Shown here: positions 3,316 to 30,967 of the stretch, piece after piece
How positions within the stretch are numbered: position 1 is the first letter of the stretch
Layout: each line of letters begins with the position of its first letter
Virus record (IMG/VR): IMGVR_UViG_3300020470_001313
Span: 64,001-128,000 of that record
Reading direction: 5' to 3' (one strand)
DNA: 64,000 nucleotides
From: a virus
Notes under the pieces: generated by a model
What the model saw: the letters and a program-made list of their open reading frames with translations, nothing else
Told to the model about the DNA's origin: nothing
Databases searched by the model: none
Position numbers and translations under genes: made by a program

Positions 3316-3385
3316 GATAGTTTCAATCCCAAATTAGGTAACTATTTATCTTTCAATGAGTAGAAATTACTAGTAATGTTCTGAG

Positions 3386-3712
3386 TCAAAGACCTGGGAC
3401 AAATCTCTTATATTTCTCTACTTGAGGTAGCATATCTCTCTCAACTCTATCAACTATATCATCTATTATATCAACGTCAATATCCATGAATGGTGGAATG
3501 ATACCAAGGATTCTCAACAAACCATCTACAAATAATGCTAGAACTGTAAACCCAAGTAGCATACTAATGATAGTAGCATCACGATTATGCTTAGCCATTG
3601 AGATGCGATCAATTTCTTGTGCTTCTTCAACAGCAGCACGTATCATAGCATCAACTTCTTTCTTGGTATAGAAATCCCCTAGTATGGGTATGTCGTGTCG
3701 GTCTGGTGTCAT
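3386..3712 (-). CDS. Hypothetical membrane protein (cyanophage type)
   Basis: TM segment IISMLLGFTVLALFVDGLLRILGIIPPF; lies directly downstream of the sigma70 promoter. Confidence 0.8.
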   Translation of the reverse strand: MTPDRHDIPILGDFYTKKEVDAMIRAAVEEAQEIDRISMAKHNRDATIISMLLGFTVLALFVDGLLRILGIIPPFMDIDVDIIDDIVDRVERDMLPQVEKYKRFVPGL

Positions 3713-5762: not shown

Positions 5763-6548
5763 TTAAATTGCCTCATCTTGACCGCTAGTAGGATTACGCT
5801 TCTTACCGTCACCAAAATCTTCCCATGTTTCACCGAATCCAAAATCATCATCTGCATCAGCAGTGATAGGATCTGGTTGTACAGTATAGCGAACTTCTCT
5901 TGGTGCAGTACCAACATTGGTACTTGTATAAGAATCGGTAATAACCTTCTTGATTGTAGAGGATTCTTGTACAGGACCGTAGATGTATGTCTTAGCAGTA
6001 AAACTTAAAGTGTAAATGATTGCGCGACGAGTGGCAAAATTACCCTCATACTCATCATCATAGTCAATATTATTAATAACGACAGGAACATCCTTTGTTT
6101 CATTGAGTCCTGGGACCAACTTGAGGGGTAAGTTATAACTTGGCTGGAAATAAGGTAAAATCTGTTCCAGAATTTCAAGGCCGTCATCTTGATTTTTAGA
6201 TATAATTGCTAACTCAAATCCTACACTATATGGAACTGGCATATATGCCACCTTACTCTTATCTGAAGTACTTGTTACTGTTATCTTCTGAGTAGGACTA
6301 ACCTTTCTTGTAGGATCATAATCAATACTAGTTATCTCAAATGAGATTCTAGGAAGAGTAATACCTACTCTTTTGTTTGTTGGATCAGGAGTCTGTTCCA
6401 AACGTGCTAAAAACTTTTGCTTAGGACCATAAGCTAGAGGCACTTTCATGACCTCACTGCCTTGTTTGATCTCTATATTATTAAACAGAGTACCAAATCC
6501 AACAACGGTCTTTCTAAAGACTTCGTGATAAAAATATTTTCCTAGCAT
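5763..6548 (-). CDS. gp15: Tail sheath stabiliser / tail terminator
   Basis: YFYHE...FGTLFNNI, VPLAYGPKQKFLARL, LPRISFE, EQILPYFQP; synteny. Confidence 0.95.
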   Translation of the reverse strand: MLGKYFYHEVFRKTVVGFGTLFNNIEIKQGSEVMKVPLAYGPKQKFLARLEQTPDPTNKRVGITLPRISFEITSIDYDPTRKVSPTQKITVTSTSDKSKVAYMPVPYSVGFELAIISKNQDDGLEILEQILPYFQPSYNLPLKLVPGLNETKDVPVVINNIDYDDEYEGNFATRRAIIYTLSFTAKTYIYGPVQESSTIKKVITDSYTSTNVGTAPREVRYTVQPDPITADADDDFGFGETWEDFGDGKKRNPTSGQDEAI

Positions 6549-7708
6549 TAGATTGTTAAGTCAGTAGTAGAACCAATGGATCCAAATGGATTACCTTCGG
6601 AGAAATCAATAATGTCATCATCAGCTGTCTCAAATGTGTAGTTCTGGTCAACTTCACTATTAGTATTATCTATAGTATTATAAGATTCAGGACTCCAGAG
6701 AGCACCAGATGATTGACCTTTAATATTCTCTCCAGTATTAAATGTACCTGTACGATTTATAACTTGAAGTGTTCTAGTGCCAGCATCCCAAGATTTGACC
6801 TCTGCTTGTGTATCCTTCGGTGAATTACCAAAGGTTACAGTTGGTGCTGAAGTATATCCAGTACCAGCAGTATTTATAGTAACTCCAGTTACCAATCCTC
6901 CAGCAGATATTACAGCAGTTCCAGCAGCACCAGATCCACCTCCACCACTGAATGTTACAGTAGGAGCAGAAGTATAAAACTCACCACCATCAGTAATGGT
7001 AACACTGTCAACACCATCACCAGATATAGTAGCAGATCCAACGGCAGTATTAAGATCCCCAATGACAATCTCACCAACTGTAAAAGCACCAGACCCACCA
7101 GTACCCATGACAAACGCCGTGGAGTTACTAAAGGCGTATTCAATAGCATCAATGTCAGCAATACCAGTATCAAGATCTTCATTAGAGTACTCAAATATTT
7201 CGCATTGCATTTCCCAGACGTATCCTTTACCTAACTGGTAAAATGGTCTTTCTGCTTCTACGAATTTAATTTCAAATAAATGTTTTGTTGTCGGGAACCA
7301 AACTAAATCTCCTTCATTAGGTCTACCTTCAACATTTAATGTAACGTTATTATCAACCTTCTCAGTAAACTTTTCACGGGAAACAATAAAGGTTGTCTTG
7401 TCTTCTATTCTAACACCAAATTTAGTTAGGAGTTCTCCTTGTCCTTCCCAACCTTCAACGTTGTTAACATATGCTCTGATAGGATATGCATTATTAAATG
7501 TACTAGTATCTATCTCATCTAGAACATTATCTCTTCCAACATAGGTTCTAGGTAGATAATAAACATCTTGTCCATACAACTCAATAGACTCCACAACAAG
7601 ATTCTCCATGAACTTACGTTCTTGATCAGAACCATTAATGTTCAATCTACAGGCAGAACTGTAATCTGACTGTACACAATCTTTTGCTGGAGTGTTTGAG
7701 TATGCCAT
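6548..7708 (-). CDS. gp14: Neck protein
   Basis: ESIELYGQDVYYLPR, RPNEGDLVWFP, PFYQLGK and C-terminal DFSEGNPFG; carries an inserted Gly-rich beta module. Confidence 0.95.
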   Translation of the reverse strand: MAYSNTPAKDCVQSDYSSACRLNINGSDQERKFMENLVVESIELYGQDVYYLPRTYVGRDNVLDEIDTSTFNNAYPIRAYVNNVEGWEGQGELLTKFGVRIEDKTTFIVSREKFTEKVDNNVTLNVEGRPNEGDLVWFPTTKHLFEIKFVEAERPFYQLGKGYVWEMQCEIFEYSNEDLDTGIADIDAIEYAFSNSTAFVMGTGGSGAFTVGEIVIGDLNTAVGSATISGDGVDSVTITDGGEFYTSAPTVTFSGGGGSGAAGTAVISAGGLVTGVTINTAGTGYTSAPTVTFGNSPKDTQAEVKSWDAGTRTLQVINRTGTFNTGENIKGQSSGALWSPESYNTIDNTNSEVDQNYTFETADDDIIDFSEGNPFGSIGSTTDLTI

Positions 7709-8522: not shown

Positions 8523-11500
8523 TTAAGCGAATGAGGATATAGTCAAAGTAGTTACATCATTAGCAGCGACAGCTTCTCCAACCTTGAAGAATCCATCAAC
8601 ATTATCAACAGTAATTAAACTCGTACCCATAGCAGTGATAACTCCAGTAGTACCAGAGGTTGCTCCAGTTACTGTTGCACCAACTTCCATCGTTGTGATA
8701 TCAGCAAGTGCGAAGGTTGCATGAGTGAATACTGTAGCAGTATTAATCGTTGCGTTAGCAAAGATTGTAGCAATATCAATAGTTGAACTATTACCATGAA
8801 TAGCAGATACAGGTATCGTTGCACTGTTACCATGAATTGCAGAAACAGGAATGGTAGCACCATTACCATGAATAGCACCAACAGACAGGGTAGCAGTGCT
8901 ACCGTGGATAGCACCAACCGTAGTTGTTGCATTACCATGAATAGCAGCAACACCAGTAACTGCGTTACCATCTCCAGATCCATCAATTGTGATAGTGTCA
9001 GAAGCAGCATATCCAGTACCATCATTATTAATTACAGCACTTACTACGTGTCCAGATGAATTGGTAGTAATATCAAGAGTCAATCCAGTACCAGAGTTAT
9101 TAGTAGTTGTAGAAACACCAGTTATAGTTTGACTAGCAGGGTATCCAGTACCAGCTACCATTATTGAATTAAGAGTCTCAACACCAGTTGCATTAGCATT
9201 AGTTAATGTGATTGTATCTGATGCAGCATAACCAGAACCATCGTTAACGATAGTCATTCCAGTTACAGAACCAGATCCATTAACAGCAACAGTAACTGTT
9301 AATCCAGAACCAGATCCACCTGTTGTAGTTGCAACTGTGCCAGCAGAATAACCTGAAGCAGCAGCAGTAATAGAACCAAGTGTAGCAACACCAGATGCGT
9401 TAGCATTGGTGATTGTAATTGAATCACTATTAGCATAATTCAAACCATCATTATTAACTGTTACTCCAGTTACTCCACCAGATCCATTAACTGTAATGTC
9501 AACAGTTAAACCAGTACCAGATCCACCTGATGTGGTGGCAATTGCAGATCCCGCAGAATAACCACTACCAGCAGCAGTGATAGTTCCAAGTGTATTAACA
9601 CCAGATGCATTAGCGTTAGCAATCGTAATTACTTCAGAAGCAGCATATCCTGATCCATCATTGTTAATTGAAACACCATCAACAACACCGTTAGTAACAG
9701 TAACGTCAACAGTCAATCCAGTACCTGAACCAGATGATGTTGTTGCAAGAGCAGTACCTGTACCATATCCAGTACCGCCAGATGCAATTGAACCAAGTGT
9801 CTTAACACCAGATGCATTGGCATTGGTAATTGTAATTGTCTCAGCATTAGCATAACCAGATCCATCATCATTAATAGTTACTCCAGTTACGGCACCATTT
9901 CCATCAACTGTAATGTCAGCAGTTAATCCAGTACCAGATCCAGATGCAGTTGTTGCTATTCCAGATCCAGCAGCATAACCTGTTCCAGCAGTTGCAATAG
10001 AACCAAGAGTTCTAACACCTGTTGCATTTGCGTTAACAATAGTGATTGTGTCATCTACAGCATATCCTGTACCAGCAGCATTAATTGCTGCGTTAGTTAC
10101 AACACCATTAGATGTTGTAAGATTAAGTGTTAAACCTGATCCACTTCCTCCAGTAGTTGCAATAGCAGTTCCATTCGCATATCCTGTACCACCAACGAGA
10201 GTATCAACAGTGGAAGCACCACCAGCATTAGCATTAACAACTGTAATTGTTTCTCCGTTAGCGTATCCTGTACCTGGTGCGTTAACTGCAATGTTTGTAA
10301 TATTACCATTTCCATCAACAGTAGTGTCAAAGGTTAATCCAGATCCACTTCCACCTGTTGTAGCAACTCCTGTAGCAGAACTAAATCCACCAACACCACC
10401 TGATAATGTACCCAAGTTCAAGGTAGAAACACCACCAAGGTTAGGGTTAGTGATTTGTAGATTATCTCCAATTAAATATCCTGAACCAGCACCATTTACA
10501 GCAAGAGCAGTTATAGCACCAGCAGCATTGACTGTAGTATCAACTGTCAATCCAGTACCAGTACCACCAGATGTGGCAACAGCAGTTCCAGCACTGAATC
10601 CACCAAGACCACTAGCAGTGATTGATCCAAGACTTACAACAGTTCCTGGTGTAGGATCTCCAGATAGATTAAGTGTTAATGTTGTAGAAGTAGCAAGGTT
10701 GTTTAACATAGCACTAAGTTGTGCGTATGCATTATCAAGTTTTGCTTGAACTCTTGCTTCTGTATAGTAAAGGTTAGTTCCCTCAGCAAGATCAGCAGTA
10801 TCATGGTTGTTAAGGTTTGCTGCCTGAGTAGCAGTTGCAGGAGTAATATCTCCAGTACCATCAAAGGCAGTACCACCAATATTTCTTGCGGTTGCTAAAG
10901 CAGTTGCAGTTGCAGCATTTCCAGAGGTATCCTGATTACCCGCTGTATTAACGCCAGGAAGGTTTATAGCAGCAGTACCATCAAATGATACTCCACCAAT
11001 GTTTCTTGCCGTTTCAAGGGCAGTAGCAGTGTCTGCGTTACCTGTAACATCACCAGTCAAATTACCAGTCACATTACCTGTTATTGTACCACCTGCTTCA
11101 ATATCATCCGTCCAGATCTTACTCCATCTATGAGTAGTCGTTCCTAAAGTATAAGAACTATCTGTGTCAGGTTTAATATTCTTAGAATCTGTAGTTGCAG
11201 CAAGAAGGTTACCAGTTACATTACCAGTAACAGATCCAGTTAGTGATGCTGTAATAACACCAGCAGCAAAGTTACCCGATGCGTCACGAATGACTAGGTT
11301 GTTTGCAGAATTAGCAGAGTTAGATGTAATTGTAATACTTGGATCACCAGCAACACCACCACCATTTGTAATACCAATACCACCACCAGATACCTGAATG
11401 GTACGTTGAGCATAAGTGTTGGCAGCTGTACGGGCAACCAGACCTGTTCCACTCATTCCTGCCAAAGCAGTTATATCTGCATCATCATAGGTAGTAGTAA

Positions 11501-14500
11501 CCGTAAAGTCTGCACTACCATTAACTGAAACCGAACCATTTACTACACCATCAATGGTGAGAGTTCTAGCAGTTTTCCAAACATCAGCAGAAGTTGCGTT
11601 ACCTTGAATACCTGCACCAGCTCCAGCAGCACTTTCAACAGTGATGATATGAGCAGAGAAGTCTCCAGAAGAGTCACGAGCAACAACTGTAGAGTTTGTA
11701 GCAGCAGTTGCAGTTGTCATTCCATCTAACAAGTCTGCGTTAAGGTTAGTAATCTTAACTGTGTTAGGAATAACTAAAGCAGGACCAGAGGAAACTTGTG
11801 AAATTAATTGTCCGTCAACAGTAATAGTACCATCAACGTTTACGTTGTTATCTACATCAAGAGCAGTACCAGCACCAGTAATATTAACTGCACCAACCTG
11901 TAAAGTACCATCAGTTCCACTAAATGTCTCAGCACTATTGGTTGCGTCAGTTAAAAGTCTAAATGTATTGAGGTTGTTATCCCATCCAAGGAATCCAATT
12001 CTTGCAGCAGTATCGTAGTATCTAAACTCAATACCACGATCTAAACCATCATTAGAAGTAGGAGCAGTAGCACCACCAAGAGTCATTACGGGATCTTCTA
12101 CCGTAGTGACCGTACTTTCAACAGTAGTTGTAGATCCTAGTACGGTGAGGTTTCCACCCACTTGGAAATTATTTCTTACTTCAGCATTACCTGAAGATGT
12201 ATCTACAAAGAAACTATTCTGAGTTCCAACAGTATCATATACAATGAAATCTCCACCAGTGTAAAGGTTCTTATCTACTCTTGCACCACCAGCAGTTGTT
12301 AATGATACCTGAGCATCAGCAAAGGATGTAATATCCTTAGTATCTGTGATAGTAATCTTACCAGCAAATGCTGCATCATCAGTCTGAGTTAAAGTTCCTG
12401 TAGTTTCTAAGTTACCATAAACTCTTGCACTACCACCAATAGCAGTGTCTCTAGCAATACCAACACCACCAGTTACTTGTAATGAACCATCAGCAGCATA
12501 AGATCCTGTTAAGGTTTGCTGTGTGTTGTTAGTAATAGATGTAATACCAGTAACACCTAGAGTGTTGTTAATACCAGCAGCAAGAGATACGTCTAGTGTA
12601 CCTGAGATATTTGTATTACCATTATCAGTATCTACTGTAAACTTATCTACAGCACCAGCAGTCTGAATCTTGAACATCTTATTATCAGACTTGACAATAA
12701 GATCATCTTGAATAGTTGTAGCACCATCAACATTTAATGTGCTATCAAAATCAACTGCATCCTGACCATTCAGTGTACCTTTAATAATTGTATTACCAGT
12801 TGAAGATGCAACTGTAAATTTATCAGTAGTTCCAGATCTAACTGCAAAGTCATTATCTACATCTACAGTTCCATTGAACTCTGAATTATTTGTAACTTCT
12901 AATGTTCCACCAATAGTTGTATTACTATCAACGTTAAGAGTTGAATTTAACTCAGTGTGTCCATCAGCAGTTAGAGTACCCTCAATATTAGTATTACCAG
13001 TTACGTTGTCAACAAAGAACTTATCAGTTGTACCATTTCTAACTGCAAAGTCTGCATCTACGTCAACAGTACTATTAAATTCTGTGGCACCAGTTACAGT
13101 TACGTCACCATCTATTTGTACATCTCTACCAAGAGTAGTATCACCATGAACTGTGAATGTACCTACAGTTGCTGAACCAGTTGAAGATATACCAACAACT
13201 GTATTACCAGTAGGACCATCAACACTAAACTTAACTGTATCTCCAGAGTTTTTCTTACCTACAAATAAACCTTCTCCAGTACCAGTACCACCAATGTGTA
13301 ATGAAGTATTAATACCAGCACCACCATATACTCTTAAGTTAGAAGTGTTATGGTTTGAGTAACTTGGAGTGTATGCAGAAACAGAACCAGTACGTAATTT
13401 ATAACGTATTGATAGGTAGTTCCTTAAACCGTAGTTCTCAGTTGCGTCTTCTTGCTGGTTAAAGTCACCGTTAAGATATAAATCACCATTGAATAATACA
13501 TTCTTATCAAAGTATGCACCACCATCTACTCTTAATGCACCATAATCATTATTCTGAATTGAGTGAGGAGCACCAGATAGAATATCAGGATTATCTGTAG
13601 ACTCAAAATGAACAAGACCAGCTACATTTAACTGTGCAGCAGCATCAATATTACCAGTTTGATTTAATACACCACCAATGTCAACATTACCTGTAGTGGT
13701 ATGAAGTGTAGTCTTAGTAGTTCCTGAACCATTCTTAAGTTCTAAAGTCTTAGAAGCACCTTGGAATACAATATTATCATCAAATCTACTTGTACCATGA
13801 GTACGGAAGTTAGTATCTACATCTAACGTACCACCAATATTTACATCTTGTGTAATACCAACACCACCTGCAACTACCAAATCTCCAGTAGTATTAGATG
13901 TTGAGTTAGTATTTGTTGTTAGTTTTAAGTTACCAGCGATGACCCCTGCATCTGTTCCAGAGAATACCTCTGAGGTATTTGTGGCATCGTAGAGGAATGT
14001 GAATGCTCCTGTATGGCCTCCAAGATCAGCGGCCGAATCGTCGTAACCAAAGAATCCAATTTTTGCGCTTGCGTCGTAATATCTGAATTCAACTCCTCTA
14101 TCCTTATTGTCGTCTGACGCAGGAGCAGTATCCCCGCCAAGAGTAACGATAGGATCATCAACAGCAAGAGTGGTTGAATTAACCGTTGTAGTTGTTCCAT
14201 CTACTTGTAAATCTCCACTTACTACTACGGTTCCAGTGATCGCACGATCATCACCTGGATCCAAATACATTGTTGCATTACTAGTAGCAATATAATTGGT
14301 TTGTATTTTTACATCTTCTATATGAACTTTACCAGTTGCTTCAGTAGCATCAATAGTTACAGTATCTTCTGCTTGAATAACAACATTACTTGTTCCAGCA
14401 CCAGTATTAGCAGCAACAAGTGTTAGGTTTCTAGCATTAGCACTGTTCTGAGATATTCCAAGGGTGAAGTTTCCATCACCTGTCTTGCTTATTGTCTGAT

Positions 14501-15881
14501 TAGTTGCTCCATCAAATGTTACATCGGGGTCACTGAAGTAAGATCTGACGTTAATATCAATCTCTCCACTGCCACTGTCGCCAGTATTATTAGCACCGAA
14601 TAGAAGATTCCCTGAAGTATCGTTAATTTTAACATAGTTTAAATAATCAAATCCATGATGTGAACCAGCTACAGTTAATTCCTGATCTAGTTCAAAGTGT
14701 TGTTGCGTGTTGTTATCAGAGAAGGATATTCTATTGTTTTGAAGTTGAGTATTATCAACACCCAAAGCACTGATGCTGACATGACCGTTATCATCAACAT
14801 CAAAATCTTCCTGTGCAAAGGAAGCGAGACCTTTCTGTTCCGTCTTCGCCGCAGCAAGATATCTCCATCCTCCAGTATCAGAAGCATCCGTATGAGTAGG
14901 TGCGCCACCTCCAGACGCAATGCCTGTAATAGCCTGATAAACCTTCGTAGCGTTCTCAATAATATCGTAACGTACATATGTTGTACCTGCATTATAAGCA
15001 GCATACTTACTACCTTCTATTGCAGTAGCAATAGGAATAGTTTCTGCTGAAGTAAATCTACCCCACTGATCAACTGTGAATTGTGTTGTGTTTACAGTTA
15101 TATCAGAGTTAGTTGGAAGATCATCACCACCAACTGAAATAAGAGCTGGAGCATTATATGCACCAACATTAGCAATGAACTCTGCTTCTGATGCAATAGT
15201 TGTATCAATAAGGTCAATAGTTGGGTTACCAGCTACACCACTACCATTAACAATAGAAATCTTACCAGAAGAACCCTGAAGAGTTCTAGGAATCATATTA
15301 CCTGCTGATGCCCTAGTAATCAAACCTGTTGCAGTCATTCCTGCAATAGATGTTAAGTCAGTATCTAATGGTTGTACGTCTGTTAAACCGAGATCAACAT
15401 AAGAAGAAGGTGAAGCACCTGTAGTAATCCTACCTTTCGCGTCTACTGTTACCTTTGTATATTGCCCTGAAGAAGTTGTTGTACCATCATAATGTGGTAA
15501 TGTAGTTAAGATCTGTAATTGTGCCGATATTGATAAGTTAGAAGATCCATCAAATGTGCCCGAACCTGCTAAGTCACTTGATAACTGTATCTGACGTGGG
15601 TTTGCTAGTCTGGATGCTGTAGCAGCATTACCGATAACAGTTGCGGTGATAGATCCTGCACTAAAATTACCGTCTGCGTCCCTTGCGACAAGAGTGTTTG
15701 CTGTGTTAGCAACTGACTCTATCGGTCTAGCATATGGCAGCGTGTTCCAACCCCTAACACCATCACCAATTTTGAATCGGTTTGTATCAAGTTCAATTCC
15801 AAGTTCACCTTGGGCTAACGTTGGGTTTTCGTTTGCCCACTCTTGAGCACCCCCTCGTCTTAGTTGAATTCTATTAGCCAT
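8523..15881 (-). CDS. Long fibre protein (2,452 aa) at the position just upstream of gp13
   Basis: Mtd/hyaluronidase-type N-terminus (RIQLRRG...W...NPTLAQGELGIELDT..FKIGDG); fibre repeats (GNLTV.GTTT.V.S...V.DP...DRG; GNA.TAT.L.TAR.IGG..FDG); C-terminal Gly-rich modules. Confidence 0.88.
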   Translation of the reverse strand: MANRIQLRRGGAQEWANENPTLAQGELGIELDTNRFKIGDGVRGWNTLPYARPIESVANTANTLVARDADGNFSAGSITATVIGNAATASRLANPRQIQLSSDLAGSGTFDGSSNLSISAQLQILTTLPHYDGTTTSSGQYTKVTVDAKGRITTGASPSSYVDLGLTDVQPLDTDLTSIAGMTATGLITRASAGNMIPRTLQGSSGKISIVNGSGVAGNPTIDLIDTTIASEAEFIANVGAYNAPALISVGGDDLPTNSDITVNTTQFTVDQWGRFTSAETIPIATAIEGSKYAAYNAGTTYVRYDIIENATKVYQAITGIASGGGAPTHTDASDTGGWRYLAAAKTEQKGLASFAQEDFDVDDNGHVSISALGVDNTQLQNNRISFSDNNTQQHFELDQELTVAGSHHGFDYLNYVKINDTSGNLLFGANNTGDSGSGEIDINVRSYFSDPDVTFDGATNQTISKTGDGNFTLGISQNSANARNLTLVAANTGAGTSNVVIQAEDTVTIDATEATGKVHIEDVKIQTNYIATSNATMYLDPGDDRAITGTVVVSGDLQVDGTTTTVNSTTLAVDDPIVTLGGDTAPASDDNKDRGVEFRYYDASAKIGFFGYDDSAADLGGHTGAFTFLYDATNTSEVFSGTDAGVIAGNLKLTTNTNSTSNTTGDLVVAGGVGITQDVNIGGTLDVDTNFRTHGTSRFDDNIVFQGASKTLELKNGSGTTKTTLHTTTGNVDIGGVLNQTGNIDAAAQLNVAGLVHFESTDNPDILSGAPHSIQNNDYGALRVDGGAYFDKNVLFNGDLYLNGDFNQQEDATENYGLRNYLSIRYKLRTGSVSAYTPSYSNHNTSNLRVYGGAGINTSLHIGGTGTGEGLFVGKKNSGDTVKFSVDGPTGNTVVGISSTGSATVGTFTVHGDTTLGRDVQIDGDVTVTGATEFNSTVDVDADFAVRNGTTDKFFVDNVTGNTNIEGTLTADGHTELNSTLNVDSNTTIGGTLEVTNNSEFNGTVDVDNDFAVRSGTTDKFTVASSTGNTIIKGTLNGQDAVDFDSTLNVDGATTIQDDLIVKSDNKMFKIQTAGAVDKFTVDTDNGNTNISGTLDVSLAAGINNTLGVTGITSITNNTQQTLTGSYAADGSLQVTGGVGIARDTAIGGSARVYGNLETTGTLTQTDDAAFAGKITITDTKDITSFADAQVSLTTAGGARVDKNLYTGGDFIVYDTVGTQNSFFVDTSSGNAEVRNNFQVGGNLTVLGSTTTVESTVTTVEDPVMTLGGATAPTSNDGLDRGIEFRYYDTAARIGFLGWDNNLNTFRLLTDATNSAETFSGTDGTLQVGAVNITGAGTALDVDNNVNVDGTITVDGQLISQVSSGPALVIPNTVKITNLNADLLDGMTTATAATNSTVVARDSSGDFSAHIITVESAAGAGAGIQGNATSADVWKTARTLTIDGVVNGSVSVNGSADFTVTTTYDDADITALAGMSGTGLVARTAANTYAQRTIQVSGGGIGITNGGGVAGDPSITITSNSANSANNLVIRDASGNFAAGVITASLTGSVTGNVTGNLLAATTDSKNIKPDTDSSYTLGTTTHRWSKIWTDDIEAGGTITGNVTGNLTGDVTGNADTATALETARNIGGVSFDGTAAINLPGVNTAGNQDTSGNAATATALATARNIGGTAFDGTGDITPATATQAANLNNHDTADLAEGTNLYYTEARVQAKLDNAYAQLSAMLNNLATSTTLTLNLSGDPTPGTVVSLGSITASGLGGFSAGTAVATSGGTGTGLTVDTTVNAAGAITALAVNGAGSGYLIGDNLQITNPNLGGVSTLNLGTLSGGVGGFSSATGVATTGGSGSGLTFDTTVDGNGNITNIAVNAPGTGYANGETITVVNANAGGASTVDTLVGGTGYANGTAIATTGGSGSGLTLNLTTSNGVVTNAAINAAGTGYAVDDTITIVNANATGVRTLGSIATAGTGYAAGSGIATTASGSGTGLTADITVDGNGAVTGVTINDDGSGYANAETITITNANASGVKTLGSIASGGTGYGTGTALATTSSGSGTGLTVDVTVTNGVVDGVSINNDGSGYAASEVITIANANASGVNTLGTITAAGSGYSAGSAIATTSGGSGTGLTVDITVNGSGGVTGVTVNNDGLNYANSDSITITNANASGVATLGSITAAASGYSAGTVATTTGGSGSGLTVTVAVNGSGSVTGMTIVNDGSGYAASDTITLTNANATGVETLNSIMVAGTGYPASQTITGVSTTTNNSGTGLTLDITTNSSGHVVSAVINNDGTGYAASDTITIDGSGDGNAVTGVAAIHGNATTTVGAIHGSTATLSVGAIHGNGATIPVSAIHGNSATIPVSAIHGNSSTIDIATIFANATINTATVFTHATFALADITTMEVGATVTGATSGTTGVITAMGTSLITVDNVDGFFKVGEAVAANDVTTLTISSFA
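8691..10649 (-). repeat. Eight ~70-aa Gly-rich beta modules followed by eight 11-12-aa closing segments (nested repeat)
   Basis: GVxTLGSI..AGTGY...TTxGSGTGLTVD...V..NDGSGY...TITI.NANAx x8, then NAxxxVxAIHG-like segments x8. Confidence 0.85.
13925..14200 (-). CDS. Candidate overprinted gene C (+1 frame in the fibre): TM anchor plus coiled coil, 91 aa
   Basis: MEQLQRLIQPLLLLMILSLLLAGILLLRQTTIRIEELNSDITTQAQKLDSLVTTI...; clean heptad pattern; GGAG 12 nt upstream; host-frame GC3 about 34% versus about 11-14% in flanks (hand count). Confidence 0.55.
   Translation of the reverse strand: MEQLQRLIQPLLLLMILSLLLAGILLLRQTTIRIEELNSDITTQAQKLDSLVTTIRPLILEAIQEHSHSSTMPQIPQRYSLEQMQGSSLVT
14519..14635 (-). 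CDS. Candidate overprinted gene B (+1 frame in the fibre): 38-aa single-TM peptide
   Basis: Hand translation MLKLTILQGIFYSVLIILATVAVERLILTSDLTSVTPM; host-frame GC3 13/39. Confidence 0.35.
   Translation of the reverse strand: MLKLTILQGIFYSVLIILATVAVERLILTSDLTSVTPM
14687..15004 (-). CDS. Candidate overprinted gene A (+1 frame in the fibre): amphipathic/basic N-region plus one TM, 105 aa
   Basis: LLRTLRRFIRLLQALRL...RRRRNRK...ILMLMITVMSASVLWVLIILNF; many Arg residues arise from rare GCG/ACG codons in the fibre frame; AAGGT/AGGT 7 nt before the ATGs at 15004 and 14977. Confidence 0.5.
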   Translation of the reverse strand: MLLIMQVQHMYVTILLRTLRRFIRLLQALRLEVAHLLIRMLLILEDGDILLRRRRNRKVSLPLHRKILMLMITVMSASVLWVLIILNFKTIEYPSLITTRNNTLN

Positions 15882-25466: not shown

Positions 25467-28400
25467 TCAGTCGTTGCGGATACTTGTATCATAGCTTATA
25501 CTCTTTATTCTCCAAGAAGCACCACCCGCACCAACGAGCTTCTCACCACCGAGGATAACCTCAGCAACTGCACCGCTTCCTGTAGTATCAATACCTGCAT
25601 TTGTAAAGGTCACAGTAGGGTGCAAAGTACCTGCTGTAACTACTTTCTTATATCCGTAACCACCATTAGTCACAGTTAAAGAACCAACCTGGTCACCGTC
25701 AGATGTCATATTAACAACTGCTTGTGCTTGTATCTCACCAGAATTTTCAATTACAACTGTTGGAGTTGCAGTATAATCAAGTCCTGGTTCCAGTACCCTA
25801 ACCTCTGTCACAGTAGAATCATCAGAGAACTCATAGAAATAACCATTAGTTCCGAGGTTTAGATTATTAGTAAAGTATGGAAGTGGGTTGATAAGAACGA
25901 GAGTTCTAGTTGCTTGTTCCCATGATTCCACGGTTGCTTGAATATTAGAACTTTGTCCTGTTACAGTCTCACCTACAACAAATGCTACACTATTAGTATC
26001 TGTTGATGCTAATTTTACTCTTATTCTAGCAGTATGCTCAACACCATCTCTTAATGCTCCAGCAGATTCAACCGTGGAATATTTAAATGGTATAGAAGCA
26101 TCTTTTACTTGGTCACCTATGGCAAAGATAGTAGTGTTTTGTCCACCAACGGTTTCTTCAATACCATATAATGAACTATGTATTCCACCATCAAGGTTAA
26201 TTTGGTCAGCATAATCTGTACCAGTATTAACAACATCAGGAATACCGTCACCAGCACCTGATGCCTCATCATCATCTTCAAACTTTTTATCAGTTAAAAT
26301 TAACTGATAAACTACAATTTGATCACCAATAGAATCAACTATAACATGTGGTAGTTGTGTGTTAGATGATGCATTAGGAGTACCACCATCAAAAGCAACT
26401 GTTCTATCTGATGTTGATGGGATACCAGCATCAATGAATGCCAACTCATCAACTTCAAATACAATTAACAGTTCTCTACTTACTGGGTTCCAGTCATAAA
26501 CTTTAGCAATCTTATTACTTGCACTCTCAACCCTACGAACTAATCTATCTCCAACATTAAATTCGTATGTTGATACACCATCAACGTTCTGAATACCATC
26601 AACTATAACTCTCTGGTCATATCTGAAGTTAGTACCTCTAGTACATCCTAAAAATTTCTTTTCATTTTTACTAGTATATTCAATAATCTCCTTACCGATC
26701 ATGAATTTACCAGAGCCAGGATAGGCATCAGTATTATGTACGACTACTTCATCATCGTTAGTATCAAGAGATTTTTGAAGACCAGTAATAAAGAAACTAG
26801 CAGCATTAAAAGACTGACGATTTCTAACCTTTCTTTTTACATTAACTAGTTTAGTGAATATAATATTAGGTGCTGAAGTATATCCTCTACCTGGATCAGT
26901 AACATCAATACCTACAACTTCACCTTGTTCAATTCTTGCAGTTGCTCTAGCACCGACTCCACCACCACCTTGAATATAAACATATGGTGGTTCTTGATAG
27001 AACCTACCTGGATTAGTAACAGCAATATTAGTAATAATACCACTATAATCAATGTTAGCAACACCCTCAGCATCTTGTCCACCACCACCTTGGAAGAAGA
27101 GAGTCGGAGGAGTTATATAACCAGAACCAGGATTATCTAATGATAGACCACTTATAGACTGTGTTACGGGAGTAGCAGCTGCACCAGTACCTTCACCACC
27201 AAGTATATCTGCTCTTGCTTCACCAAAATATCCATCACCACCAGCAATCATCCTAACATATTCTACCTGACCTGCATTAGTTTCACTAAGAACAACTTCT
27301 GCTCTAGCACCGCTAGGTACTTCAGCAGCTTGTACAGGAGGATCTTCACCCTTTCTAACCACTCCACCATAATAAGTGTTACCAATAGCATAAGGATACT
27401 CAGGAGTACTATCAGATGCTGTTGTCATAAAGTATGCATAAGTTCCATTTGGATACTCAGGAGTTACACAATACCTACCATTATGTTCATCAAGATCACC
27501 TTCAGTAGCATCCCAAATATAGTCTTGAATAAATGTACCAGCAGGATAATTTAGAATATTAGTCTTATTACCCATGTTAGGATGCATGTAACAGAAGTAA
27601 TGTAAATTAGCAGGTGCAAACCAAGGAACTGTAATTACAAGTTTTCTTGTTGTAGCAGAATTATAATTACTAACATACTGGGCATATGTTACTGCATTAC
27701 CATTAATATAATACGTAACACCACGTTCGTAAAGAACATCTTGATCATATAAAGTCTGACTATCTGCATGCCAACCTTGCTTACCTTCTTCACCAGCAAA
27801 ATCTGTTAGTAGTAATGTATGATCATCATTACTTGAATCATCTAAATTAAATGTAACTGTATCACCACGATTGATAAGTTCAATAGGTGCTTCAACTCCA
27901 TTAAGGAGGAACTTACCATTAGCAGCAGTTACAGTATAAGTTGTATTAGTAGGTGTATTGATCCCTACTCTATTACCATCAATCTCAACACCTGTTTTTA
28001 ATCTATAACCTGTATCAATTCTCTTAATAGCAGACTGATCATCTAATGGTGTAGTATAACCAAATGGTCCATATATTGGATAACCATCATAGGATATACC
28101 TAAAATCTTACTGTGACCATTAGCATGACGTGACTTATCTCCACCAAAATTAGATTCACTATAATAAGTCTTAATTGTAAATAAACTATTACTAGCAGAG
28201 AATGAATCAACTACTTTAGCATCTTGAAACAAATATAAGTGACTACTATTAGGATAACCATGATAAGCATCATGATCTCTATAATTTATCTTAATCTGAT
28301 CAAAATTAAATCCAACAGGAGGAGTACCATCTGATCCTGCATCTGGAGATATTAATGGTGAACCATTGGCAAGTAATCCAACCTGTTCTGGAAGACGATT

Positions 28401-28904
28401 TGGATTATCTTCAATAGGAACATCTTTACCACCACGATATACTATCGTATGTGAATAATCTTGAGCAAATATATTATTGTTATTAAATGTACTAGGAAAT
28501 ACTCCTGTTCTAGCAGGGTCTGGAAGATTGTTTGATACAAGTGTTAACCTGTCTCCAGCAAATGCTCCAGTAGTAATAGATGCTGTGGTACTACTTAAAA
28601 TACTTCTAATATCAAAAGAATCATTAGTTAAGTTATCATCCTGCTTGGCTGATATAACAACACGAAGAGGGTCATAACCTTTACCACCATCTAATACTCT
28701 TACATGAACAATTTTACCTGCTTCTATTATTGGATATAATATTGCTTCAACCTCTGGTGTGCCACAATTAGTCACATCCAACTTAGGAGGATCGGTAGCA
28801 ACATAGTCTTTACCACCGTCTTTAACGACAACAGCATCTACACCAAAGTCTTTATTAAAGATTGGTGTAATAACTGCTCCAGATCCAGGTATTGTTCTCG
28901 TCAT
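25467..28904 (-). CDS. Structural protein with a degenerate YHYH domain, an inserted cupredoxin-like domain and Gly-rich beta modules
   Basis: GHSKILGISYDGYPIYGPFG...DLDEHNGRYCVTPEYPNGTYAYF; H...YFCYMHPNMG. Confidence 0.8.
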   Translation of the reverse strand: MTRTIPGSGAVITPIFNKDFGVDAVVVKDGGKDYVATDPPKLDVTNCGTPEVEAILYPIIEAGKIVHVRVLDGGKGYDPLRVVISAKQDDNLTNDSFDIRSILSSTTASITTGAFAGDRLTLVSNNLPDPARTGVFPSTFNNNNIFAQDYSHTIVYRGGKDVPIEDNPNRLPEQVGLLANGSPLISPDAGSDGTPPVGFNFDQIKINYRDHDAYHGYPNSSHLYLFQDAKVVDSFSASNSLFTIKTYYSESNFGGDKSRHANGHSKILGISYDGYPIYGPFGYTTPLDDQSAIKRIDTGYRLKTGVEIDGNRVGINTPTNTTYTVTAANGKFLLNGVEAPIELINRGDTVTFNLDDSSNDDHTLLLTDFAGEEGKQGWHADSQTLYDQDVLYERGVTYYINGNAVTYAQYVSNYNSATTRKLVITVPWFAPANLHYFCYMHPNMGNKTNILNYPAGTFIQDYIWDATEGDLDEHNGRYCVTPEYPNGTYAYFMTTASDSTPEYPYAIGNTYYGGVVRKGEDPPVQAAEVPSGARAEVVLSETNAGQVEYVRMIAGGDGYFGEARADILGGEGTGAAATPVTQSISGLSLDNPGSGYITPPTLFFQGGGGQDAEGVANIDYSGIITNIAVTNPGRFYQEPPYVYIQGGGGVGARATARIEQGEVVGIDVTDPGRGYTSAPNIIFTKLVNVKRKVRNRQSFNAASFFITGLQKSLDTNDDEVVVHNTDAYPGSGKFMIGKEIIEYTSKNEKKFLGCTRGTNFRYDQRVIVDGIQNVDGVSTYEFNVGDRLVRRVESASNKIAKVYDWNPVSRELLIVFEVDELAFIDAGIPSTSDRTVAFDGGTPNASSNTQLPHVIVDSIGDQIVVYQLILTDKKFEDDDEASGAGDGIPDVVNTGTDYADQINLDGGIHSSLYGIEETVGGQNTTIFAIGDQVKDASIPFKYSTVESAGALRDGVEHTARIRVKLASTDTNSVAFVVGETVTGQSSNIQATVESWEQATRTLVLINPLPYFTNNLNLGTNGYFYEFSDDSTVTEVRVLEPGLDYTATPTVVIENSGEIQAQAVVNMTSDGDQVGSLTVTNGGYGYKKVVTAGTLHPTVTFTNAGIDTTGSGAVAEVILGGEKLVGAGGASWRIKSISYDTSIRND

Positions 28905-30109: not shown

Positions 30110-30117
30110 TATTTATG
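30110..30117 (-). promoter_or_regulatory. Late promoter CATAAATA overlapping the upstream stop codon
   Basis: TCA-TAA-ATA, about 18 nt before the start at 30092. Confidence 0.6.
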
Positions 30118-30967
30118 AAGGTCTCTGTTCTTTAGTACTAGGACCAAAGATATATGGGTATACTGGCTTGTTATCCTCATCTAATGTGAGATAATAAGCA
30201 AATGTACCACTAGGAAATTCAGGAGTAACTGCGTATCTACCATTATAAACGTCCAAGTCTCCTAAACCGTTAACGTATTCATAATCTTGAATAAAAGTTC
30301 CAGCATTATATTGACTGTAACTATATGTTCTATTCGCAGGTGGAGTAGTCAATACTCTATATGAACTAGTGAGTCTTTTAGTTCCTTGTGAATTATCAGT
30401 TGAAACTTTATACCCAAATGGTCCATATATGGGATACCCATCAAAACATATACCAACGATCTTTGAATGACCATCAGGATGTCTAAAGAAGTTACCTTCA
30501 TAGTTAGAGTTTGAGAAGTATCCATTAGATTGAATTACTCCATTTGCCCAACAGTTAGTGAGAAAACTTCCTGAATGATAATGGTATGATCCATTCTGCT
30601 CTGGGTGCCCCCCACAAGGGTCTACACCGTACGCTGCTTCATTATATACTGCATTCCATTGAAAATTATCAGGTAGAGGATTAGTATCCCCAGGTAGAGG
30701 ACCACCAGCCGCAGAGGGGTTGGTAATCAAAACACCATTAAGTGCAATACCTATACCACCAAGACCAGTTGCTTGAGGGTTAGAAGTATTAGTTCCACCT
30801 CTATATGTAATATCAAAACTATAAGTCTGAGCAGAGATATTATTAGGATTATTGGGGAAATTCCCAGAACCTAAAGGATCTCCAGCTAGAGCAGGATCGG
30901 GAAGACCATTACTTGTTACAGTAAGAGTATTCCCATCAATAGTAGCAGTAGTATTTGAAGCTGGCAT
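30113..30967 (-). CDS. Stand-alone YHYH-domain protein
   Basis: SNGLP, GIGIALNGV, DPCGGHPEQNGSYHYH, HSKIVGICFDGYPIYGPFG, DLDVYNGR..VTPEFP.GT.AY. Confidence 0.88.
   Translation of the reverse strand: MPASNTTATIDGNTLTVTSNGLPDPALAGDPLGSGNFPNNPNNISAQTYSFDITYRGGTNTSNPQATGLGGIGIALNGVLITNPSAAGGPLPGDTNPLPDNFQWNAVYNEAAYGVDPCGGHPEQNGSYHYHSGSFLTNCWANGVIQSNGYFSNSNYEGNFFRHPDGHSKIVGICFDGYPIYGPFGYKVSTDNSQGTKRLTSSYRVLTTPPANRTYSYSQYNAGTFIQDYEYVNGLGDLDVYNGRYAVTPEFPSGTFAYYLTLDEDNKPVYPYIFGPSTKEQRPS

What the first reader, a model, noticed from the sequence alone, without database searches (positions are those of the whole stretch)
8523..10690. Russian-doll fibre tip: 8 modules nested inside one another, with their closing strands stacked at the end
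Eight ~70-aa modules run in series. Seven end at TITI.NANAx (QITNPNLG in the first) with no final strand; only the eighth closes normally (TITIDGSGDG-NAVTGVAAIHG). Exactly seven more 11-12-aa segments follow: NATTTVGAIHG, STATLSVGAIHG, NGATIPVSAIHG, NSATIPVSAIHG, NSSTIDIATIFA, NATINTATVFT, HATFALADITT. An intact copy of the module in gp7 (about 46590-46830) ends VTISGGGNQ-DATVTIV, which identifies these segments as the missing last strands. The last three closers are the most divergent, mirroring the more divergent modules 1-3, as expected for reverse-order pairing. The stack also interrupts an outer barrel domain (TLTLNLSG...MEVGATVTGATSG). Inference: the chain goes out through 8 domains and returns as one long strand, giving a doubly tethered rod that grows by insertion into the same loop rather than by tandem duplication.
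Basis: partly seen in the sequence, partly recalled or inferred. Interest (0 to 1): 0.85.

Follow-up and report, generated by a model that had tools for sequence, protein, structure and literature searches.

The report
Eight-deep nested-domain rod in cyanophage fibre
The last 722 residues of a marine cyanophage fibre protein most likely form a rod of eight small domains nested one inside the next, each completed by a strand from the returning chain; this is deeper and more regular than any nesting I found described.

Summary
The C-terminal 722 aa of a 2452-aa T4-like cyanophage fibre (window 8523-15881, minus strand) holds 8 modules of 67-72 aa. Eight 11-12-aa segments ("closers") and a 55-aa end domain follow.

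- **Counts.** Module number equals closer number in 178 of 179 homologues with 3 to 8 modules. Separately seen 1- and 2-module forms also match. The one exception (P0054) is a metagenome sequence, and its nearest relative (P0271) has the missing closer.
- **Order.** Module and closer types correspond in mirror order. One special third module predicts one special third-from-last closer, 100 of 100 against 0 of 79.
- **Fold.** A 3-module homologue folds as a monomer with pLDDT 87.9. Its first strand and last 51 aa align together to single small beta-barrels, so the chain returns to its start.
- **Binding.** The three closers alone, as a separate 38-aa chain, dock on the three modules (ipSAE 0.80, best control 0.02). 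Each lies between the first and fifth strand of a module, antiparallel.

Not shown: the 8-module protein itself did not fold (pLDDT 44), the oligomeric state is untested, and how the two arrays grow in step is unknown. Nested insertion is known from sheath proteins and cyanobacterial RNA polymerase Si3. A same-domain nest of variable depth is a new variant. The scan also noted this stretch in an overlapping window of the same genome.

The parts
8523..15881 (-). Whole fibre gene, 2452 aa (P0001). It has an Mtd_N-like N-terminus and lies between a DUF4815 giant protein and the gp13/gp14/gp15 neck genes.
   Evidence: ORF. Pfam PF18454 E 9.4e-13. phrog_697 'structural protein'. Homologue named 'fiber [Cyanophage P-RSM3]'. 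Neighbours.
10644..10691 (-). Lead strand TSTTLTLNLSGDPTPG. It is the first strand of the outer barrel, after which the chain leaves for the module array.
   Evidence: Coordinates. The homologous strand is E8-12 in the model. Small barrels align 55-70 residues spanning model 1-317.
10431..10643 (-). Module 1 (outermost, type A; GGF in place of GTGY; ends NPNLGG). Inferred partner is closer c1.
   Evidence: In the homologue, M1 strands 1 and 5 (residues 17-35 and 74-84) touch the closer chain.
10218..10430 (-). Module 2 (type B). Inferred partner is closer c2.
   Evidence: In the homologue, residues 87-94 and 146-151 pair antiparallel with closer residues 250-243 at 0.4-0.5 A expected error.
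10017..10217 (-). Module 3 (type C, ASTVDTLVGGTGY...). Inferred partner is closer c3 (NSSTIDIATIFA).
   Evidence: A type C module is present if and only if the third-from-last closer is the non-His type: 100 of 100 against 0 of 79.
9183..10016 (-). Modules 4-7 (type D, 61-71% identical to one another). Boundaries: M4 9807-10016, M5 9600-9806, M6 9390-9599, M7 9183-9389. Inferred partners are the His-type closers c4-c7.
   Evidence: M6/M7 and c6/c7 are the extra units relative to 6-module relatives.
8967..9182 (-). Module 8 (type E, the innermost unit and so the distal tip). It is followed directly by its own closer.
   Evidence: In the homologue the last module plus the first closer strand (model 160-238) aligns as one domain to T4 gp18 domain I at Z 4.7.
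8691..8966 (-). Eight stacked closers, read c8 to c1: c8 8934-8966, c7 8901-8933, c6 8865-8900, c5 8829-8864, c4 8793-8828, c3 8757-8792, c2 8724-8756, c1 8691-8723. Together they form the return strand.
   Evidence: Homologous closers have pLDDT 87-95 and strand state. They dock on the modules with ipSAE 0.80 against a best control of 0.02.
8526..8690 (-). C-terminal 55 aa (MEVGATVTG...SFA). This is the rest of the outer beta-barrel, closed together with the lead strand.
   Evidence: F1-ATPase N-terminal barrel 1fx0_A Z 4.8, eIF2-gamma 1s0u_A Z 5.0, YgfZ 1nrk_A Z 5.1 and phage KP1 9f4a_AY Z 6.6 each align 56-71 residues over model range 1/4 to 307/317.

Best explanation
The fibre ends in a recursively nested rod.

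**Path of the chain.** After the lead strand of a small beta-barrel, the chain runs outward through eight homologous modules of about 70 aa. Each module is left open: it lacks a strand between its first and fifth strands. At module 8, the distal tip, the chain turns. It runs back as one nearly continuous extended strand of eight 11-12-aa segments. Each segment slots antiparallel into one module, in reverse order (first closer into module 8, last closer into module 1). The chain then completes the outer barrel at the base. Topologically, module k+1 is inserted in the same loop of module k, and the whole array is inserted in the barrel. That makes nine levels.

**Inferred consequences.**
- The rod is stapled by a continuous spine.
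- Both chain ends are anchored at the base.
- The tip is a loop-bearing module with no free terminus.
- Rod length is set by nesting depth. About 11.5 residues at 3.3 A gives roughly 3.8 nm per level, so about 30 nm here.
- The innermost module plus its closer is one contiguous DNA cassette and can be exchanged.

**Status of the steps.** Shown here: the counts, the mirror correspondence and the predicted contacts in a 3-module homologue. Inferred: transfer to the 8-module protein, the dimensions and the function.
For: **Counts**
- Modules equal closers in 178 of 179 homologues: 3:3 x28, 4:4 x31, 5:5 x57, 6:6 x48, 7:7 x3, 8:8 x11.
- These comprise 110 distinct architectures.
- 2:2 forms (P0125-P0127) and a 1:1 form (P0147) also exist.
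- The tail after the last module grows by about 11 aa per module.

**Mirror order**
- Modules read A B C D..D E/F. Closers read backwards give 1 f f h..h h.
- A type C module predicts a non-His third-from-last closer, 100 of 100 against 0 of 79. This also holds within 5-module proteins, 38 against 19.
- An M1 subtype ending NANAGK goes with c2 'TVAT' plus c1 'NATL' in 12 of 12, against 0 of 103. The tip type E/F assorts with both.
- Distance matrices correlate in mirror fashion: end domain with M1 0.57, c2 with M2 0.32, first closer with last module 0.71.
- In the window protein, module and closer similarity matrices correlate at 0.68 in reverse order (permutation p 0.0025) and 0.28 in forward order.
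- Mutual information between module and closer clusters is 3.31 bits for reverse pairing with no shift. It is 2.64-2.72 when shifted by one and 2.80 for forward pairing.
- Indexed from the outside, M1-M4 and c1-c4 map one-to-one between 8-module and 6- or 7-module proteins (P0008, P0007); against 4- and 5-module relatives only the outermost two or three levels do.

**Predicted structure**
- AF2 monomer of the 3-module homologue P0122: pLDDT 87.9, pTM 0.68, closers at pLDDT 87-95. The strands are broken only by 3-residue gaps.
- Small barrels align 55-70 residues spanning model 1-317.
- Split prediction, modules against closers only: ipSAE 0.80 (runs 0.80, 0.73, 0.80), best of 3 controls 0.02, partner pLDDT at least 84, contact agreement at least 95%. 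By the tool's calibration this mark was reached by 58 of 80 solved complexes and 2 of 110 mismatched pairs; those counts hold only roughly here because my own alignment was used.
- The interface covers strands 1 and 5 of each of the three modules. The best pairs are 87-94 with 250-244 and 146-151 with 246-243.
- No similar solved complex was found, so a pass from memory is unlikely.

**Relatives with local closure**
- The single module in the giant ORF is followed by its own strand.
- P0223 has four modules, each followed at once by GSGFSVPVATV.
Against: - The 8-module window protein did not fold (pLDDT 44, 18-row alignment). The structure is transferred from a homologue that is 69% identical over the aligned columns.
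- No coordinates could be inspected. The explicit low-error pairs listed are all for the middle module. For M1 and M3 the pairing rests on the interface residue list, the strand direction and chain continuity.
- Phage fibres are normally trimers, and only a monomer and a split monomer were modelled. A trimer in which closers complete modules of a neighbouring chain would fit the same counts.
- The homologues are related, so the type associations are not independent events.
- P0054 shows 4 modules with 3 closers.
Confidence: 0.8

Rival explanations
1. Same out-and-back topology, but in an intertwined homotrimer. The returning strands complete modules of a neighbouring chain (domain swap) or line a central three-fold core, as in the needle of the T4 long tail fibre tip.
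For: - Fibres of this kind are usually trimeric (general knowledge).
- The gene sits where I recall T4 carrying genes 12 and wac, both of which encode trimers (neighbours; T4 gene order from memory).
- Equal counts and mirror order would hold equally well.
- His is conserved in the inner closers, and axial His sites occur in T4 fibres (from memory).
Against: - The monomer alone reaches pLDDT 87.9 and pTM 0.68.
- The closer chain docks on a single copy of the modules at 0.80.
- His alternates with Phe, Tyr, Trp or Ala at the same position. That looks like a packing residue rather than a metal ligand.
- There is no HxH motif.
- A trimer was not modelled, so this rival is not excluded.
Confidence: 0.12
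2. The short segments form an independent beta-solenoid or beta-meander shaft after a plain tandem array of complete domains. This is the usual reading of short repeats in fibres.
For: - Repeats of 11-12 aa with Gly/Asn spacers resemble fibre shaft repeats.
- The DSSP pattern of 8-9-residue strands with 3-residue breaks is not by itself incompatible with a meander.
Against: - A solenoid gives no reason for equal counts over 1 to 8 or for mirror-order types.
- The Gly-Asn-Gly junctions are in strand state, and the breaks fall at VSA and LST.
- All closer residues 230-261 contact module strands 1 and 5.
- The 1:1 form has a single closer, which cannot form a sheet alone.
Confidence: 0.04
3. The closers merely lie alongside complete modules as a length-matched strap. 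The modules would then be autonomous domains, and the protein would not be a true nest.
For: Length matching alone would explain equal counts. Folding of a module without its closer was not tested.
Against: - The closer sits between strands 1 and 5 of each module, so it is internal to the sheet.
- Relatives always supply one such strand per module, either locally or at a distance.
- The last module plus its closer strand aligns as one domain to gp18 domain I.
Confidence: 0.04

Closest known systems
'Russian doll' domain organisation of contractile sheath proteins (T4 gp18, diffocin CD1363, pyocin and T6SS sheaths)
   Same: Domains are inserted one into another in a phage structural protein (PMC6088184, which cites Aksyuk 2009 and 2011). 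The module plus its closer (model 160-238) aligns weakly to gp18 domain I: 3fo8_D residues 99-188, Z 4.7, 73 aligned, rmsd 2.9. One ESM Atlas 'tail sheath monomer' cluster matches the whole model at TM 0.53.
   Different: Sheaths have 2 to 4 levels of unlike domains with fixed depth. Here the same module is nested 8 times, plus a barrel. Depth varies from 1 to 8 among close relatives, and the returning strands form one continuous stacked array.
Si3 insertion of cyanobacterial RNA polymerase (nested sandwich-barrel hybrid motifs)
   Same: This is a recursive nest of homologous small beta domains forming an elongated body. Several motifs are built from distant parts of the chain (PMC10895346). 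A survey of 2.7 million domains presents it as a six-level nest, the only case of that depth it describes (PMC13114784).
   Different: The fold is different and no sequence relation was found; the Foldseek row for 8emb_F is insignificant (E 0.21). Si3 has an irregular, branched nest of fixed architecture. The fibre is a regular linear nest, deeper (9 levels inferred), with a simple count rule.
Needle domain of the T4 long tail fibre tip (gp37), recalled from memory and not tested here
   Same: The chain runs out to the distal tip and folds back, so the C-terminus is not at the tip.
   Different: gp37 is an intertwined trimer of extended strands with HxH iron sites and no globular modules. Here there is one His per repeat, replaceable by Phe/Tyr/Trp, with globular modules and a confident monomer model.
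Donor-strand complementation in chaperone-usher pili, recalled from memory as an analogy only
   Same: An incomplete beta fold is completed by a strand supplied from elsewhere.
   Different: In pili the strand comes from the next subunit, in trans. Here it comes from a distant part of the same chain.

Membership tests
Recursive (nested) domain-insertion architecture | A host domain is discontinuous in sequence, and its two parts fold together around an inserted domain. | tested here: met
   Small barrels align 55-70 residues spanning model 1/4 to 307/317. Closers supplied as a separate chain fill the gap between strands 1 and 5 of each module. This is predicted structure only.
Recursive (nested) domain-insertion architecture | An inserted domain is itself host to a further insertion (depth above 1). 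| tested here: met
   Three module levels plus the barrel in the P0122 model and complex. Depth of 8 plus 1 in the window protein is inferred from counts and mirror order.
Beta-solenoid or triple beta-helix fibre shaft | Short repeats stack on one another as an autonomous shaft, with a number unrelated to other domains. | tested here: not met
   The number equals the module number in 178 of 179. All closer residues contact modules.
T4 gp37-type needle | HxH motifs forming axial metal sites in an intertwined trimer. | tested here: not met
   No HxH is present. There is one His per repeat, and it alternates with F/Y/W/A. The trimeric state was not tested.
Cyanophage fibre family (phrog_697, Mtd_N N-terminus) | Sequence match to the family profile and to the N-terminal Mtd_N domain. 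| tested here: met
   phrog_697 at 2886.7 bits. PF18454 E 9.4e-13, above its cut-off. 387 homologues, including the P-RSM3 'fiber'. 242 cyanophage genome records.
T4 gp18 domain I-like beta-barrel (fold of one module plus closer) | Structural superposition over most of the domain with a clear Z-score. | tested here: inconclusive
   3fo8_D Z 4.7 (73 aligned, rmsd 2.9), 9ev2_S1 Z 4.7 (75 aligned) and 3foa_A Z 4.3. These lie within the range the tool calls common for unrelated matches.

The most novel reading that the evidence does not exclude
The module family may obey a general 'balanced brackets' rule. Every open module is closed later by exactly one strand, so proteins can be written as bracket words.

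Three kinds of word were seen:
- Closed tandems, ()()()().
- Linear nests from ( ) up to (((((((( )))))))).
- Branched nests.

This cyanophage fibre would then be the deepest regular recursive nest known (9 levels). It would be a length-tunable rod whose tip cassette (innermost module plus closer) can be swapped as one contiguous DNA piece. Depth would change through paired duplications in two distant arrays. That poses a real evolutionary and folding puzzle, because the first module cannot finish folding until the last closer has been made.
Probability: 0.55. Interest if true: 0.85.

Novelty: new variant of a known kind. Interest (0 to 1): 0.72.

Why it matters
- **Depth.** If the model holds, this is a natural protein in which one small domain is nested inside itself eight times. 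That is deeper than the six-level Si3 nest of cyanobacterial RNA polymerase, the only case of that depth described in a 2026 survey of 2.7 million domains (PMC13114784). Close relatives supply a ready-made series of depths 1 to 8.
- **Tests it opens.** How does a chain fold when the outermost domain can close only after everything inside it has been made? How do two distant repeat arrays stay equal in number? Does a continuous spine strand stiffen a fibre?
- **Phage biology.** The distal end of an abundant marine cyanophage fibre would move from the C-terminus to the innermost module. That is where host-recognition variation and cassette exchange should be sought. These proteins are annotated today only as 'structural protein', 'fiber', 'YadA domain-containing' or 'hypothetical'.

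Tried and rejected
- **AF2 of the window's own 722 aa.** With an 18-row alignment it gave mean pLDDT 44, which is unusable. Nothing is concluded from it.
- **Searches with no clear result.** Pfam gave no hit on the modules. A sequence search of the PDB gave only two chance-level rows at E 0.4. Foldseek against the PDB gave nothing at E <= 0.001. A missing match does not prove a new fold.
- **Module splitting by regular expressions.** These over- or under-split the modules. They were replaced by HMM-based splitting. Apparent 5:4 and 6:5 cases were parsing artefacts.
- **Tail length as a proxy for closer number.** Replaced by explicit parsing.
- **A trimer prediction.** Considered but not run, because the single complex job went to the split test.
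- **Literature searches.** Searches for a described nested cyanophage fibre found none. The library is incomplete.
- **Earlier scan notes.** They held only another first-stage read of this same stretch, made in an overlapping window.
Full report
**What is there.** The finding lies in the last 722 codons of a 2452-aa ORF on the minus strand (window 8523-15881).
- The protein has an Mtd_N-like N-terminus (PF18454, E 9.4e-13) and matches phrog_697 'structural protein'.
- It has 387 homologues in a word-indexed search. One of them is named 'fiber [Cyanophage P-RSM3]'.
- Its neighbours form a T4-like structural block: gp8, gp9/10, a DUF4815 giant protein, then this gene, then the gp13, gp14 and gp15 neck genes.
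- In the T4 gene order as I recall it, this is the slot of genes 12 and wac.
- Relatives occur in 242 cultured Synechococcus and Prochlorococcus myovirus records. They are annotated only as 'structural protein', 'fiber', 'YadA domain-containing structural protein' or 'hypothetical protein'.

**Check of the observation.**
- A 16-aa lead strand.
- Eight modules of 67-72 aa.
- Eight segments of 11-12 aa.
- A 55-aa end domain.

An HMM of the modules recovers all eight at i-E 2e-24 to 4e-31. It also finds single copies elsewhere in the window. One is the copy in the 9242-aa ORF (aa 3971-4031), which is followed at once by GGGNQ-DATVTIV.

**Test 1: do the counts match in homologues?** I parsed 120 proteins and 80 IMG/VR loci. 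Modules were split by HMM, and closers were stepped back from the ME[VI]G anchor.
- Of the 179 sequences with both anchors, 178 have equal numbers: 3:3 x28, 4:4 x31, 5:5 x57, 6:6 x48, 7:7 x3, 8:8 x11. They comprise 110 distinct architectures.
- An exhaustive search of 1.84 billion representatives added 2:2 fibres (P0125-P0127) and a 1:1 fibre (P0147). The series therefore runs from 1 to 8.
- The one exception, P0054 (4:3), has the modules of one lineage and the tail of another.
- The only other member of its 90% cluster, P0271, has the same four modules and four closers. It is exactly 12 aa longer.
- I read P0054 as a probable assembly collapse or chimera. I cannot prove that.

**Test 2: is the correspondence in reverse order?**
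- *Types.* Modules fall into types A B C D..D E/F from N to C. Closers read backwards fall into 1 f f h..h h.
- *Third position.* The special third module (type C) is present exactly when the third-from-last closer is the non-His 'TIFA' type: 100 of 100 against 0 of 79. This also holds among proteins of the same size (five modules: 38 with, 19 without).
- *Outermost pair.* An M1 subtype ending NANAGK always goes with c2 'TVAT' and c1 'NATL' (12 of 12, against 0 of 103). The tip module type E or F occurs with both.
- *Distance matrices.* Across 115 distinct tails the end domain tracks M1 (0.57) and M2 (0.49). It tracks the sequence-nearer last module less (0.24). The first closer tracks the last module (0.71).
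- *Within the window protein.* Module and closer similarity matrices correlate at 0.68 in reverse order (permutation p 0.0025) and 0.28 in forward order.
- *Mutual information.* It peaks at reverse pairing with no shift: 3.31 bits, against 2.64-2.72 when shifted by one and 2.80 for forward pairing.
- *Orthology.* Indexed from the outside, M1-M4 and c1-c4 map one-to-one between the 8-module protein and its 6- and 7-module relatives (P0008, P0007). Against 4- and 5-module relatives only the outermost two or three levels map cleanly. The extra units in the 8-module protein are M6/M7 and c6/c7, just under the conserved tip.

These sequences are related, so the associations are not independent events. 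Even so, only the mirror pairing gives one consistent code across all sizes.

**Test 3: structure prediction.**
- *The 8-module protein.* It failed with a shallow alignment (pLDDT 44).
- *A 3-module homologue.* P0122 is the last 317 aa of P0077. With a 75-row alignment it gave mean pLDDT 87.9 and pTM 0.68.
- *The closers in that model.* They score pLDDT 87-95 and are in strand state: E230-237, E241-249 and E253-260. The strands run through the HG|NG junctions and are broken only by three residues. That fits an extended return strand better than hairpins.
The first was an all-against-all structural search. In it, many small beta-barrels align 56-71 residues while spanning model residues 1/4 to 307/317. 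Examples are the F1-ATPase N-terminal domain 1fx0_A (Z 4.8), eIF2-gamma 1s0u_A (Z 5.0), YgfZ 1nrk_A (Z 5.1) and a phage KP1 baseplate protein 9f4a_AY (Z 6.6). This is possible only if the lead strand and the last 51 aa form one barrel, so the chain returns to its start.
- *The module fold.* In the same search, T4 sheath gp18 domain I aligns to model 160-238, which is the last module plus the first closer strand (3fo8_D, Z 4.7). That match is weak.
- *The split test.* The second readout was a complex prediction with modules 1-229 as one chain and the three closers alone (230-267) as the partner.
  - ipSAE was 0.80 (runs 0.80, 0.73, 0.80), and the best of three controls was 0.02.
  - Partner pLDDT was at least 84, and contact agreement between runs was at least 95%.
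  - By the tool's calibration, 58 of 80 solved complexes and 2 of 110 mismatched pairs reach this mark. The counts hold only roughly here, because my own alignment was used.
  - The interface covers strands 1 and 5 of each module: 17-35 and 74-84, 86-104 and 141-153, 155-169 and 215-223. It also covers every partner residue from 230 to 261.
  - The lowest-error pairs (87-94 with 250-244, and 146-151 with 246-243) put the middle closer antiparallel between strands 1 and 5 of module 2.
  - With that direction and chain continuity, the last closer goes with module 1 and the first with module 3.
  - No like complex is solved, so the pass is unlikely to be recalled from memory. It remains a model's confidence, not a measurement.

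**Relatives outside the fibre family.** The module is widespread, with 537 representative hits.
- In P0223, four modules are each followed at once by their own GSGFSVPVATV strand.
- P0200 and P0186 have two modules followed by two strands.
- In P0131, a simple motif count gives the bracket word (((()(((()))))))(. Its first 11 opens and 11 closes balance exactly.
- P0197, counted by eye, gives 6 and 6.
- These counts rest on motifs only. They suggest that 'one closing strand per module, locally or at a distance' is a general rule of the family.

**What is not shown.**
- The oligomeric state is untested. A trimer with swapped closers fits the counts equally well.
- The mechanism of growth is unknown. 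Module DNA identities are at most 0.79 and closer DNA identities at most 0.81, so no recent event is visible. The extra units lie below a conserved tip in two separate arrays.
- Function is inferred only. The tip module comes in two very different types that assort with the same outer shell. This fits an exchangeable recognition cassette.

**Comparison with what is known.**
- Nested insertion is established for sheath proteins, where it is called a 'Russian doll' (PMC6088184).
- It is also established for the Si3 insertion of cyanobacterial RNA polymerase (PMC10895346). A 2026 survey of 2.7 million domains presents Si3 as a six-level nest, the only case of that depth it describes (PMC13114784).
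- The fibre differs in three ways. It is a regular nest of one domain type. It has a continuous stack of return strands. Its depth varies from 1 to 8 among close relatives, which gives 9 levels here when the barrel is counted.
- I therefore class it as a new variant of a known kind.
- I found no paper describing it, but the library is incomplete.

Noticed in passing
window 30988-58716 (minus strand), 9242-aa ORF; aa 3971-4031, 3356-3417 and 1125-1330: The giant gp7-position protein carries single, locally closed copies of the same module. It also has a tandem run of about 38-aa units (GGGGSGA, hairpin, GSGY, TxxP, strand) that look like the core of the 70-aa module.
   Followed up: partly
window 6548-7708 (minus strand), 386-aa gp14-like neck protein, aa 239-298: The neck protein (PF11649, E 1.3e-30) has one copy of the module family after its conserved part (i-E 7.9e-06). 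The same building block therefore decorates neck, baseplate and fibre proteins of this phage.
   Followed up: no
P0131 (1604 aa) and P0197 (1182 aa), distant representatives: Motif counts give balanced bracket words, 11 modules to 11 closers and 6 to 6. The closers come in several stacks, which suggests branched nests in unrelated proteins.
   Followed up: partly
P0054 against P0271 (same 90% cluster): P0054 is the only 4-module, 3-closer sequence. It differs from its cluster-mate by one missing 12-aa closer. It may be an assembly collapse of the 36-nt repeat, or a real mismatch intermediate.
   Followed up: partly
P0128 (278 aa): An odd protein. It has an unrelated N-terminal 120 aa joined to the last strand of an F-type module, six closers and the end domain, with no module array. 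It may be a chimeric assembly or a truncated recombinant.
   Followed up: no
window 10692-10793 (minus strand), just upstream of the lead strand: The conserved stretch EGTNLYYTEARVQAKLDNAYAQLSAMLNNLA looks like a short helical, possibly coiled-coil, segment that could hold three chains together at the base of the rods. It was not modelled.
   Followed up: no
window 25467-28904 and 30113-30967 (minus strand): Two baseplate-region proteins carry YHYH domains (PF14240, E 2.8e-23 and 1.3e-38). This is unusual for T4-like structural blocks.
   Followed up: no
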